Positions 17,659-19,428 of a stretch of 55,546 bases of DNA are shown here, in pieces (within the stretch, counting starts at the first letter, position 1; every line of letters begins with the position of its first letter). This stretch comes from Promethearchaeati archaeon (lineage in GTDB: Archaea; Asgardarchaeota; Heimdallarchaeia; Heimdallarchaeales; Heimdallarchaeaceae): contig JABLTJ010000032.1 in assembly GCA_013166775.1 (NCBI GenBank), forward strand, positions 1-55,546, read 5' to 3'. The position numbers and the translations under genes are program-made. Under the pieces are notes generated by a model. That model was not told the origin of the DNA, ran no database searches, and saw nothing but the letters and a program-made list of their open reading frames with translations.

Positions 17659-19428
17659 TCAATTTGTAACAAGAGCTTTCCTTCCTTTAATATTATCATA
17701 AATCTTCCTTGCTCTTTTCTCAGGAAATATCTCAGAAAGAAAGCCGTATGATATTTCTTCGAATTTTGTAGCATTCCTCTTAGGATATCTTTCGATAATT
17801 GTCTCTGCTTCTTCCTTTGTGCAATTTGCTAAGAACTGTAAATACCTAACTTGTTCATATGTTTGGTCAGTGTAATTCTTCCTCGAATCCATGTCTCTTC
17901 CTTTTGATAATGCTTGAACAACACTCACCATAGCTTTAGTTCGTGTATCCATCTTTGTTCGCATTCTTTTGTTGAAAAGATTTTGTTGATTCAATACTAG
18001 AGTTTTTTGAATGTCAAGATCTGATAGAAGTTTTCCAAACTTCTTTTCCCTATTTCTGAAACTATGAAAAACTCTTTCTTCATTAGATCTATGAGTGAGA
18101 AGTATATAAATTTCTGAATTATCCTTTGTACTCTGAAGATAATCAGAATAGCGAGACGGATTATTAAAAAAGATTAGAGCATCAGCTTCAATTTGTTCTA
18201 TTTTAGTTGAAGCAAGAATATTTATTTTTCCTTCTTTAAAATGAGTTACTAGTGCTTCCTTCTCCTTAGATTGCTTTCTAGGCAGAATCTTGCATTCCAG
18301 TGCATTATCAGCTAGGTATTCAGGAATTCTCTGAACTACTGATTTGTTATTTGAGATTATAACAAATTTTGAGAAATTTCTTTTGCTTTTCAAATCTAGA
18401 ATAAGCTGTAATAATCTTGAATACTTAGGATGATCTGTTGTTTTTGATAATTTCCGAAGCTCATTGAGAAATTCAGTAAAAATAGGTGTTCGAACAAATT
18501 TACTGTGAAGATTGGATATTTTTTCTTCTTCAATTATGTTTTCGTTTTTATCTTTAAGATTCTCCATATATCTTATAGCTGCTTTTAATCCTGAAGCCTC
18601 AACTAACTCCTTCAAAGTCTGGAAATTCATTAACTCAACCGCTTTTCGAAGTAAAACTCTTTGCTGATCTATTTCGTATTTTGATTTAAGATGCATAACA
18701 AAACTTGGAAATTCTTTCCTTACTGTAAGCGGTCTATTAACTCCTTGATCTTTTAGAAAAGTCTGATATTCTCTAATGTATCTATTAACTTCAAAACAAA
18801 AATCATAAAGCTGCTTGTTTATAGGAACAGTAATAGTTTTTTCTTTATTCAAAGGACTCTTAACATCTTGATCTGGATTGCGATATTCAATTTTAGTGGT
18901 CAAAAGATTCTGGCATACTTCTTGTAAATCTTCCTTTAAACCGAAGAAATAAGAAGTAAAACCAACAATTCTAATGAAAATATTATTCTGATGGAAGATT
19001 TCTAGCATCAATGCTAAAGCATGTTTACCTTTAGTAAGATGAGCTTCATCAATAAGTAAAAGGGAGAAATCTGATGGAACTACTAGCTGTCTTAAGAAAT
19101 CGTTTTTTAGCAAATGTGGAGTGATGAACAAGATGTCTGATTCGACATATTTTTCTTTTCTTTTCTTTATAGAATCTGATGAGAAAACGATATTGAGAGA
19201 ATAGTCACTAAATTCATCTTCTGAAAAAACAGTAAGATTAGTTTTCAATGCTTCCTTCTCTATAGAGATAATTGCAATTTTTTGATGCTTCTCAGTTTTA
19301 AGAAAATACTTTGTAAGAAGTGTCTTAAGGATTGAAGTGTCGAACCACTCAGGTAGAATTAAAAGAGTGTTCTCTTTAGTTGCTGTCCCTAGTATTATTT
19401 GGCTATAAGTATCATAGTTCGAACTCAT
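17659..19428 (-). CDS. Hef/FANCM/XPF-family pseudo-helicase with C-terminal HhH2-like domain, lacking the ERCC4 nuclease
   Basis: Hef-like segments ITPHLLKND, FSLLLIDEAH, IVGFTS, EVCQNL..KIEYR, DHPK. Walker A reads LPEWFDTS and motif VI is absent. The C-terminus YLQFLANCTKEEAETIIERY...PEKRARKIYDNI resembles HhH2. Confidence 0.75.
   Translation of the reverse strand: MSSNYDTYSQIILGTATKENTLLILPEWFDTSILKTLLTKYFLKTEKHQKIAIISIEKEALKTNLTVFSEDEFSDYSLNIVFSSDSIKKRKEKYVESDILFITPHLLKNDFLRQLVVPSDFSLLLIDEAHLTKGKHALALMLEIFHQNNIFIRIVGFTSYFFGLKEDLQEVCQNLLTTKIEYRNPDQDVKSPLNKEKTITVPINKQLYDFCFEVNRYIREYQTFLKDQGVNRPLTVRKEFPSFVMHLKSKYEIDQQRVLLRKAVELMNFQTLKELVEASGLKAAIRYMENLKDKNENIIEEEKISNLHSKFVRTPIFTEFLNELRKLSKTTDHPKYSRLLQLILDLKSKRNFSKFVIISNNKSVVQRIPEYLADNALECKILPRKQSKEKEALVTHFKEGKINILASTKIEQIEADALIFFNNPSRYSDYLQSTKDNSEIYILLTHRSNEERVFHSFRNREKKFGKLLSDLDIQKTLVLNQQNLFNKRMRTKMDTRTKAMVSVVQALSKGRDMDSRKNYTDQTYEQVRYLQFLANCTKEEAETIIERYPKRNATKFEEISYGFLSEIFPEKRARKIYDNIKGRKALVTN

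What the first reader, a model, noticed from the sequence alone, without database searches (positions are those of the whole stretch)
17659..19428. Hef/FANCM/XPF-family protein with dead helicase, no nuclease, retained HhH2
It is collinear with the Hef helicase region, but Walker A (LPTGLGKT) reads LPEWFDTS, motif III (TASPG) reads TSYFF, the motif V GLD is gone and motif VI (QRRGRTGR) reads LQSTKDNS; only DEAH survives. After a linker too short to hold an ERCC4 domain comes an HhH2-like tail. The 589-codon frame is uninterrupted, which suggests selection as a pseudoenzyme. XPF-family proteins dimerise through HhH2, so this could be a non-catalytic partner for an active Hef/XPF, analogous to ERCC1 or FAAP24 but with a different architecture.
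Basis: partly seen in the sequence, partly recalled or inferred. Interest (0 to 1): 0.72.

Follow-up and report, generated by a model that had tools for sequence, protein, structure and literature searches.

The report
Dead Hef paralogue coupled to XPD
One family of Heimdall (Asgard) archaea keeps an extra copy of the fork-repair enzyme Hef that has lost its ATP motor and its nuclease but is still under selection, and its gene overlaps that of an XPD-type repair helicase, so it is probably a non-catalytic DNA-binding or docking partner in DNA repair.

Summary
Window 17659-19428 (-) encodes a 589-aa protein with the Hef/FANCM helicase fold (FANCM 9el5 Z 27.2, Hef 1wp9 Z 25.9). It lacks Walker A and motifs Ia, III, V and VI, has no ERCC4 nuclease, and ends in a small helical domain whose best fold matches are (HhH)2 domains (Hef 1x2i Z 7.0, FAAP24 Z 6.9).

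The motif losses are shared by all about 12 sequence clusters of the family, which I found only in one Heimdallarchaeial family (five genera). DEAH survives only in the query's close relatives. dN/dS is about 0.12, so this is a selected pseudoenzyme, not a decaying gene.

- The tail is missing in several lineages.
- Its glycine hairpins are gone and its charge varies widely.
- The genome's short ERCC4 nuclease is not co-distributed with the family.

The strongest association is with an archaeal-type XPD helicase. In all 16 informative loci of two genera, XPD lies immediately downstream. A conserved TTG start gives a 14-nt overlap in 13 of the 14 orthologous loci examined.

Related XPD pairings with Hef/XPF-family genes occur in two sister families. 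This scan had already found the same module on other genomes. I found no paper describing it.

The parts
17659..19428 (-). Complete CDS of the dead Hef paralogue ('pHef', 589 aa plus TGA stop)
18829..19428 (-). RecA1-like domain (residues 1-200). It keeps a Q-motif-like Q10, TPHLLKND (motif Ib/Ic) and KGKHA. It has lost Walker A and motifs Ia and III.
   Evidence: AF2 model; motif table; alignment
19333..19356 (-). Degenerate Walker A, LPEWFDTS (residues 25-32). No member of the family has GKT here.
19039..19050 (-). DEAH (residues 127-130). Present here but not conserved in the family.
18379..18828 (-). All-helical insertion domain (residues 201-350), as in Hef, FANCM and RIG-I-like helicases
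18085..18378 (-). RecA2-like domain (residues 351-448), with deletions in place of motifs V and VI. HPK and THRSxEE are conserved.
17881..18084 (-). Very basic helices after RecA2 (residues 449-516, pI about 10.5). This is the most constrained segment (dN/dS 0.05), with motifs NQQ and MxxRTKAM.
17662..17880 (-). (HhH)2-like helical tail (residues 517-589) without Gly hairpins. Absent in some orthologues.
17388..17672 (-). 5' piece of the co-oriented XPD-type helicase gene, with Walker A GVGKT. The conserved TTG start at 17672 overlaps pHef by 14 nt; an alternative ATG lies at 17651. The piece ends at a premature TAA.
17390..17409 (-). Exact 10-bp tandem duplication (AAACATCTAT x2) that shifts the XPD frame in this assembly
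   Evidence: In the orthologues the two XPD pieces are 15 nt apart and in frame; here they are 25 nt apart.
15872..17389 (-). Remainder of the XPD-type gene: Fe-S cysteines, DEAH, DEAD_2 and Helicase_C_2

Best explanation
This is a paralogue of the archaeal fork-repair enzyme Hef. Before the five genera of one Heimdallarchaeial family diverged, it lost every ATP-binding and hydrolysis motif and the whole ERCC4 nuclease domain.

It kept the two RecA-like lobes, the helical insertion domain, a strongly basic helical extension and, in most lineages, a degenerate (HhH)2 tail. I infer that it no longer translocates or cuts and instead acts as a structural subunit. The basic SF2 shell and C-terminal helices would bind branched or duplex DNA, much as the inactive helicase-like module of eukaryotic XPF does. 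The protein would work with the archaeal-type XPD helicase that is co-transcribed and probably co-translated from the overlapping downstream gene, for example by placing or holding XPD at forks or bubbles. The tail would be an accessory docking module, possibly for Hef, XPF or RadA-type partners.

Shown: the fold, the motif losses, the absence of a nuclease, purifying selection, the family-restricted distribution and the conserved gene overlap with XPD.

Inferred: loss of ATPase activity, DNA binding, physical association with XPD, and the role of the tail.
For: Fold:
- AF2 model with pLDDT 81.
- Foldseek: 1wp9 E 3e-25, 9el5 E 1e-22.
- VIA: 9el5 Z 27.2 (rmsd 4.0, 470 aligned); 1wp9 Z 25.9.

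Motif loss. It is shared by all family clusters, with common deletions at motifs V and VI. No intermediates exist: canonical Hefs with full motifs begin only at E 1e-40.

Selection. dN/dS is 0.125 overall, and every region is below 0.17. XPD gives 0.06-0.07 in the same genome pairs.

Distribution. Among 399 Asgard genomes, full-length matches occur only in family f1, in genera g1 to g5.

XPD linkage:
- XPD lies immediately downstream on the same strand in all 16 g1/g2 loci that have downstream sequence, although the pHef proteins themselves are only 36% identical.
- A conserved TTG start gives a 14-nt overlap in 13 of 14 loci.
- In g4 and g5 the two genes lie 25-30 kb apart on the same replicon.
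- In sister family f7, the Hef paralogue that is sister to pHef in the trees (SH-aLRT 93 and 90) lies about 10 kb from XPD in 6 of 6 genomes.
- In family f3, a short ERCC4 nuclease gene directly precedes XPD.

Recombination context. RadA lies 360 nt downstream in g5, and a RadB-like gene abuts the f7 paralogue.

Charge. The whole protein has pI about 9.3, like Hef helicase parts. The post-RecA2 helices have pI about 10.4.

Precedent. The XPF helicase-like module is an inactive SF2 helicase that regulates the nuclease and presents a dsDNA-binding surface (PMC7048804).
Against: - No interaction, DNA-binding or expression data exist, and no complex could be modelled with these tools.
- Adjacency shows co-regulation, not contact.
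- In three genera (g3 to g5) the genes are not adjacent.
- In this very assembly XPD is frameshifted while pHef is intact. If the frameshift is real, pHef can persist at least briefly without XPD.
- Joint absence of the two genes from 7 genomes of the genus is uninformative. Adjacent genes drop out together from MAGs that are 76-90% complete.
- Motifs Ia, IV and V, which contact nucleic acid in active SF2 enzymes, are also degraded, so DNA binding is not assured.
Confidence: 0.55

Rival explanations
1. It is a non-catalytic subunit that heterodimerises through its HhH2 tail with the active full-length Hef, or with the short ERCC4 nuclease, and modulates that nuclease, as ERCC1 does for XPF or FAAP24 for FANCM. 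This can coexist with the XPD reading.
For: - The tail's best fold matches are the dimerising (HhH)2 domains of this very superfamily: Hef 1x2i Z 7.0, FAAP24 4bxo Z 6.9, XPF 2kn7 Z 6.5, ERCC1 1z00 Z 5.9.
- The genome encodes a complete Hef and a 250-aa ERCC4+HhH protein.
- The tail is under constraint (dN/dS 0.06-0.14).
Against: - The tail is missing in several lineages that keep the rest of the protein, one of them still in the XPD operon (G019).
- The short nuclease is absent from most carriers (G018, G021, G022, G024, G025, G030, G032, G034, G037, G040, G011-G016) and common where pHef is absent.
- Hef is not a neighbour of pHef.
- Profile comparison of the tail with Hef HhH2 was not significant.
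- Z about 7 is within the range of common helical arrangements, and SAM domains follow closely.
Confidence: 0.2
2. It is a recombination accessory factor that acts with RadA-family recombinases at stalled forks rather than with XPD. On this view the XPD adjacency in two genera is secondary.
For: - In the two closed g5 genomes a full RadA/Rad51 gene lies 360 nt downstream on the same strand.
- In g4 an overlapping AAA_25/KaiC-like ATPase follows pHef.
- In f7 the sister Hef paralogue abuts a RadB-like gene.
- Hef itself acts at stalled forks (established knowledge of archaeal Hef).
Against: - There is no RadA gene beside pHef in g1 or g2, including this window.
- The RadA neighbourhood is seen in few, closely related genomes.
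- The tight gene overlap is with XPD, not with RadA.
Confidence: 0.12
3. It is a functionless relic, a slowly decaying duplicate whose long open frame is fortuitous.
For: All catalytic motifs are lost. Some copies are truncated, and one has an internal TAA (G013).
Against: - dN/dS is about 0.12 in four independent close pairs.
- There are 76 invariant columns across 27 sequences that are as little as 34% identical to the query.
- The gene is retained in five genera.
- The frame stays open in DNA of about 30% G+C.
Confidence: 0.03
4. It is still an ATPase or translocase that uses non-canonical residues.
For: A Q-motif-like glutamine (Q10) is invariant, and this member keeps DEAH.
Against: - There is no P-loop lysine or threonine in any member.
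- The arginine-finger motif VI and motif V are deleted.
- DEAH is not conserved in the family.
- By established SF2 enzymology these losses abolish hydrolysis.
Confidence: 0.03

Closest known systems
Archaeal Hef (P. furiosus Hef: helicase domain PDB 1wp9, (HhH)2 domain 1x2i; NCBIfam NF010337)
   Same: It has the same three-part helicase fold with a helical insertion (Z 25.9) and is collinear over about 460 residues (E 1.6e-30 with the family profile). It shares the family landmarks TPxxxxND and HPK and has a C-terminal (HhH)2-like domain. In the trees it nests among Heimdallarchaeial Hefs.
   Different: It has no Walker A and no motifs Ia, III, V or VI, and no ERCC4 nuclease domain. The tail lacks Gly hairpins. 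It scores 123 bits against the 610-bit cut-off of the equivalog model. It coexists with a complete Hef in the same genome.
Eukaryotic XPF/Rad1 helicase-like module (PMC7048804)
   Same: It is an SF2 module of the same superfamily (RecA1, helical domain, RecA2) that has lost ATP binding and hydrolysis and is kept as a structural, regulatory and DNA-engaging part of a repair machine. In eukaryotes XPF works in the same pathway as XPD.
   Different: XPF keeps an active ERCC4 nuclease in the same chain and pairs with ERCC1. The family profile did not retrieve XPF from PDB sequences at E up to 10, whereas Hef and FANCM were strong. The degeneration here therefore looks independent, not orthologous.
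FANCM / Mph1 translocase (PDB 9el5) with FAAP24
   Same: It is the best structural match (Z 27.2, rmsd 4.0, 470 residues). The FANCM family also shows domain inactivation, in its case of the nuclease, and pairs with a non-catalytic HhH2 protein.
   Different: FANCM keeps an active motor and a degenerate nuclease domain. Here the motor is dead and the nuclease domain is absent.
ERCC1 / FAAP24 / Eme1-type non-catalytic partners
   Same: They are non-catalytic members of the XPF/MUS81 superfamily with an (HhH)2 domain. The tail matches FAAP24 (Z 6.9) and ERCC1 (Z 5.9).
   Different: Those proteins are a nuclease-like domain plus HhH2. This one is a helicase-like module plus HhH2 with no nuclease-like domain, an architecture I did not find described in any paper searched.

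Membership tests
Archaeal Hef (NF010337 equivalog) | SF2 helicase fold with a helical insertion domain between the RecA lobes | tested here: met
   1wp9: Foldseek E 3e-25, VIA Z 25.9. phmmer E 4e-17.
Archaeal Hef (NF010337 equivalog) | Intact ATPase motifs I (GxGKT), II (DExH), III and VI (QRxGRxGR) | tested here: not met
   Alignments. Motifs I, III and VI are absent in all members; motif II is present only in the query's clade.
Archaeal Hef (NF010337 equivalog) | ERCC4 nuclease domain (GDxnERKx3D) | tested here: not met
   There is no PF02732 hit. The NF010337 match stops at profile position 557 of 781. Only about 140 residues follow RecA2, and all are helical in the model.
Archaeal Hef (NF010337 equivalog) | C-terminal (HhH)2 dimerisation and DNA-binding domain | tested here: inconclusive
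   Fold matches: 1x2i Z 7.0 (63 of 68 residues aligned), FAAP24 Z 6.9, XPF Z 6.5. However, hhalign gave prob 0.4%, the GhG hairpins are absent, and the domain is missing in some orthologues.
Archaeal Hef (NF010337 equivalog) | Score at or above the curated cut-off of the equivalog model | tested here: not met
   123.5 bits against a cut-off of 610.
Eukaryotic XPF/Rad1 | Inactive helicase-like module joined to an active ERCC4 nuclease and HhH2 | tested here: not met
   The helicase-like module is inactive, but no nuclease is present.
Eukaryotic XPF/Rad1 | Specific sequence relationship to the XPF helicase-like module | tested here: inconclusive
   The family profile against PDB sequences lists Hef, FANCM and Dicer but not XPF at E up to 10. 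XPF was not among the listed structural matches to the helicase part (top rows only).
FANCM/Mph1 | Active SF2 translocase motor | tested here: not met
   The fold matches best (9el5, Z 27.2), but the ATPase motifs are absent.
ERCC1/FAAP24-type partners | Nuclease-like (ERCC4-fold) domain preceding HhH2 | tested here: not met
   There is no ERCC4-like domain by Pfam or in the model.
Pseudoenzyme (operational definition) | Homologue of an enzyme that lacks catalytic residues across the family and is under purifying selection | tested here: met
   motifs; dN/dS 0.11-0.17; 76 invariant columns.
Heteromeric partner of XPD | Physical association with the XPD-type helicase | not testable with these tools
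   Only genomic evidence is available: a conserved 14-nt overlap. No multimer prediction or experimental data could be obtained.

The most novel reading that the evidence does not exclude
The pHef-XPD pair is a dedicated two-subunit machine. A Hef-derived dead-helicase scaffold recognises branched or damaged DNA, loads or restrains an archaeal XPD, and bridges it through the (HhH)2 tail to Hef/XPF nucleases. It would be the first known protein cofactor of an archaeal XPD. It would also be an independent Asgard parallel to the eukaryotic arrangement in which an XPF-family protein with a dead helicase module cooperates with XPD in excision repair. XPD pairings with Hef/XPF-family genes recur in three families of the class closest to eukaryotes.
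Probability: 0.3. Interest if true: 0.72.

Novelty: new variant of a known kind. Interest (0 to 1): 0.55.

Why it matters
Archaeal XPD has been studied as a stand-alone helicase with no known partner, and how archaea couple XPD, XPB and XPF/Hef into a pathway is still unclear. A conserved, selected, catalytically dead Hef paralogue encoded in an overlapping operon with XPD gives a concrete candidate cofactor that can be expressed and tested.

It also shows that the "dead helicase module kept as a scaffold" state, known from eukaryotic XPF, arose independently in Heimdallarchaeia, here taken further by loss of the nuclease. The scope is limited. I found the family only in one archaeal family known from MAGs, and no biochemical evidence exists.

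Tried and rejected
1. Profile-profile comparison of the tail (A3) with real Hef HhH2 tails (A4) gave prob 0.4%, E 0.15. Sequence does not support homology of the tail; only fold does.

2. I tested whether pHef is co-distributed with the short 250-aa ERCC4 nuclease. It is not.

3. Joint absence of pHef and XPD from 7 genomes of the genus looked like co-loss. I discounted it because adjacent genes vanish together from incomplete MAGs. The three genomes with XPD but no pHef (G020, G028, G038) all have XPD cut at a contig end.

4. Origin.
- The trees place pHef sister to the f7 HefA paralogue, with SH-aLRT only 90-93 and long branches on both sides.
- The AU test does not reject pHef grouping with its own family's Hef (p 0.249).
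- The donor copy is therefore unresolved by phylogeny; synteny with XPD and RadA-like genes favours HefA.

5. The first alignment put MDxRTKA and YIQFL opposite the nuclease motifs VDxRE and GDY. I rejected this as a nuclease remnant: the segment is helical in both models and no ERK motif follows.

6. The roughly 490-aa ORF upstream of the f3 ERCC4-XPD pair shows no relation to pHef (hhalign prob 0.2%) and has no PDB hit.

I therefore took context from genome-search loci and could not fetch DNA for the closest relatives (P0002 at 91% identity, P0003 and P0004 at 72-73%).

8. Literature searches for a dead Hef in Asgard archaea, or for an archaeal XPD partner, found nothing specific.
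Full report
**What is there**

Window 17659-19428 (minus strand) is an uninterrupted 589-codon ORF in DNA of about 30% G+C. Pfam gives only sub-threshold DEAD (E 3e-5) and Helicase_C (E 5e-4) hits and no ERCC4 hit.

Against PDB sequences the best match is the helicase domain of P. furiosus Hef. That match (1wp9, E 4e-17) is collinear over residues 8-462; FANCM follows (9el5, E 1e-10). The NCBIfam Hef equivalog NF010337 matches at 123.5 bits against a cut-off of 610. 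It covers only profile positions 19-557 of 781, which is the helicase and linker but not the nuclease.

**Family and motifs**

A word-indexed search of 5.8 billion proteins found about 31 full-length relatives, 36-91% identical. All are about 590 aa, and those that carry a name are from Candidatus Heimdallarchaeota. Similarity then drops abruptly to canonical Hefs at E 1e-17.

An exhaustive HMM search of 1.84 billion cluster representatives found about 12 clusters for the family (E 1e-281 to 1e-42). Ordinary Hefs follow from 1e-40.

The alignments give the following picture:
- Every family member lacks the Walker A GKT, motif Ia and motif III.
- All share a deletion of the GEEG part of motif V and of the QRxGRTGR arginine finger.
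- Every sequence from P0048 onward has all motifs. There are no intermediates, so the losses date to the family's ancestor.
Others read DNAH, DQSH, FDAH, SDAI, ANAG or DHAH.
- What is conserved instead: Q10, TPHLLxND (motif Ib/Ic), KGKHA, CxNLLxTKIE, HPK, THRSxEE, NQQ, MxxRTKAM, IQFLxxC and NIKGRKxLV. In total, 76 columns are invariant across 27 sequences.

**Structure**

An AF2 model built on the family alignment (pLDDT 81, pTM 0.65) has these parts:

| Residues | Feature |
|---|---|
| 1-200 | RecA1-like lobe |
| 205-350 | Helical insertion domain |
| 355-447 | RecA2-like lobe |
| 449-510 | Long helices |
| 507-519 | Short disordered stretch |
| 517-586 | Four- to five-helix tail |

Foldseek ranks 1wp9 (E 3e-25) and the FANCM translocase 9el5 (E 1e-22) first, then RIG-I and MDA5. 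VIA gives 9el5 Z 27.2 (rmsd 4.0, 470 residues) and 1wp9 Z 25.9.

I folded the last 100 residues alone (pLDDT 74) and compared them with 48,161 representative chains. The best matches are (HhH)2 domains:
- NusA acidic repeats, Z 7.3 and 7.1
- The Hef HhH domain 1x2i, Z 7.0 (rmsd 2.9, 63 of 68 residues)
- FAAP24, Z 6.9
- XPF, Z 6.5
- FANCM-FAAP24, Z 6.2
- ERCC1, Z 5.9
- SAM domains follow at Z 5.6 and below.

These Z values are modest. Profile-profile comparison with real Hef tails is not significant. I therefore call the tail (HhH)2-like by fold, with both Gly-hydrophobic-Gly hairpins replaced. No room or signal exists for an ERCC4 domain.

**Selection**

Nei-Gojobori estimates on orthologue pairs with unsaturated dS (0.19-0.43) give dN/dS of 0.11-0.17. 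Pooled by region:

| Region | dN/dS |
|---|---|
| RecA1 | 0.16 |
| Helical insertion | 0.09 |
| RecA2 | 0.10 |
| Helices 449-510 | 0.05 |
| Tail | 0.14 |
| Neighbouring XPD, same pairs | 0.06-0.07 |

The gene is clearly maintained by selection.

**Distribution and origin**

I searched 399 Asgard genomes with the family profile. Full-length matches occur only in one GTDB family, f1:
- g1, the window's genus: 15 of 25 genomes
- g2: 2 of 2
- g3, g4 and g5: each represented

All other genomes yield only canonical Hefs of 750-840 aa. The record titles of the g1 and g2 loci retrieved read Candidatus Heimdallarchaeota (or 'uncultured archaeon').

The window's genome also has a complete Hef, with FDEAH, TASPG, QRKGRTGR, GDY..ERK and GIGEKIA motifs. 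In addition it has a 250-aa ERCC4+HhH protein.

In ML trees of the helicase region the family is monophyletic (100) on a stem of about 2 substitutions per site. It is sister to a second Hef paralogue ("HefA") of sister family f7, with SH-aLRT 93 and 90. Long branches meet there, and an AU test does not reject a grouping with the family's own Hef (p 0.249). So pHef is a Hef derivative, but which copy gave rise to it is unresolved by phylogeny.

The family profile retrieves Hef, FANCM and Dicer from PDB sequences but not human XPF. The dead helicase state therefore looks independent of the one in eukaryotic XPF.

**Genomic context**

Directly downstream on the same strand lies an XPD-type Fe-S helicase.
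- In all 16 g1 and g2 loci with downstream sequence, XPD follows immediately, even though pHef is only 36% identical between the two genera.
- A TTG start 14 nt inside the 3' end of pHef is conserved in 13 of 14 loci. The window has it too (17672), plus an ATG 7 nt after the pHef stop.
- The helicase is closest to archaeal XPD structures: 3crv E 3e-30; 2vsf and 4a15 about 1e-26.
- It is a distinct lineage, 45-72% identical within f1 and at most 31% identical outside.
- The genomes also carry one or two longer XPD-family genes.

In g4 and g5 the two genes are 25-30 kb apart on the same replicon. There pHef is followed by an AAA_25/KaiC-like ATPase in g4 and by RadA in g5, 360 nt away.

In f7, HefA lies about 10 kb from XPD in 6 of 6 genomes and abuts a RadB-like gene. 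These genomes are one genus, so they count as one observation.

In f3, a 264-307-aa ERCC4+HhH gene lies 9 nt upstream of XPD in one genome and overlaps it by 4 nt in the other.

XPD is thus linked to Hef/XPF-family genes in three families of this class.

The short ERCC4 nuclease is found in only 9 of 25 g1 genomes. It is absent from most pHef carriers and common in families that lack pHef.

The tail is absent in G019 (still in the XPD operon), G013, G014 and several metagenomic clusters. Its pI ranges from 4.3 to 9.7 between members. By contrast the whole protein (pI about 9.3) and the helices 449-516 (about 10.4) are uniformly basic, like Hef helicase parts.

The tail therefore behaves as an accessory, probably protein-docking module, not as the core of the function.

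**Interpretation**

The most likely reading is a non-catalytic Hef-derived scaffold. It would bind DNA through its basic SF2 shell and C-terminal helices and work with the co-encoded XPD. The closest functional analogue is the inactive helicase-like module of XPF, which regulates the nuclease and offers a dsDNA-binding surface (PMC7048804).

Loss of ATPase activity, DNA binding and XPD contact are inferences. Only fold, motif loss, selection, distribution and gene arrangement are shown. The HhH2-mediated Hef/XPF partnership and a RadA-linked role remain open.

**Caveats**
- In this assembly XPD itself is broken by an exact 10-bp tandem duplication at 17390-17409. Orthologues are in frame.
- All genomes are MAGs that are 72-95% complete.
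- Joint absence of two adjacent genes from incomplete MAGs is not evidence of co-loss.

**Novelty**

Sources name the protein "hypothetical" or "ERCC4-related helicase". Full-text searches found no description of a dead Hef in Asgard archaea or of an XPD partner in archaea. One review only notes that Asgards carry XPF, XPD and XPB-Bax1 (PMC12993045).

Earlier follow-ups of this scan reached the same reading on other genomes of the family. Within the scan this is therefore a repeat find. I rate it a new variant of a known kind.

Noticed in passing
window 17390-17409 (-), within the XPD-type gene 15872-17672: An exact 10-bp tandem duplication (AAACATCTAT x2) splits the XPD-type gene into 128-aa and 497-aa ORFs. 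In orthologues the two pieces are 15 nt apart and in frame. XPD copies in G018 (1 TGA) and G015 (1 TAA) also carry in-frame stops. This could be a real recent lesion or an assembly error; I cannot tell which.
   Followed up: partly
L095 (G041:C76:9000-14000) 3-4061 and L096 (G042:C150:14500-19500) 969-4991: A sister family (f3) has a same-strand three-gene cluster. The first ORF is about 485-495 aa with no Pfam or PDB hit; its language-model features resemble XPD-family helicases (0.95, a lead only). The second is a 264-307-aa ERCC4+HhH nuclease whose ERK motif reads ELK. The third is an XPD of 582-585 aa. The genes are 9-14 nt apart or overlapping.
   Followed up: partly
L097 (G090:C26:171500-186500): In family f7 a second full-length Hef paralogue (818 aa) sits tail-to-tail with a 228-aa RadB-like Rad51 paralogue and about 10 kb from XPD. 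A 1705-aa Ig-domain surface protein lies between them. The same spacing is seen in six genomes of that genus.
   Followed up: partly
L069 (G016:C1:119500-129500) 2583-3671 and L071 6079-7170; L070 (G014:C4) 5703-6734: In the two closed genomes of genus g5 a full RadA/Rad51 gene lies 360 nt downstream of the dead Hef paralogue. In g4 an overlapping AAA_25/KaiC-like ATPase follows it instead.
   Followed up: partly
G000:C56:48420-48929 and equivalents in the family: Genomes of this family carry one or two further, longer XPD-family genes (frames of 707-830 aa). These match Helicase_C_2 much better than the pHef-linked XPD does. Their relation to eukaryotic XPD, FANCJ or RTEL was not examined.
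   Followed up: no
window 19553-19924 (-): A 123-aa ORF upstream of the finding has a sub-threshold match to the Pol-beta-type nucleotidyltransferase family (E 2.5e-4). It is not conserved upstream of orthologues.
   Followed up: partly
L002 1186-1938 (-) = G000:C103: The genome's short 250-aa ERCC4+HhH nuclease has a patchy distribution: 9 of 25 genomes of the genus, two of them with in-frame stops, but nearly all genomes of family f5. It matches the Hef nuclease model better (E 3e-43) than the crenarchaeal Xpf model (E 7e-21).
   Followed up: partly
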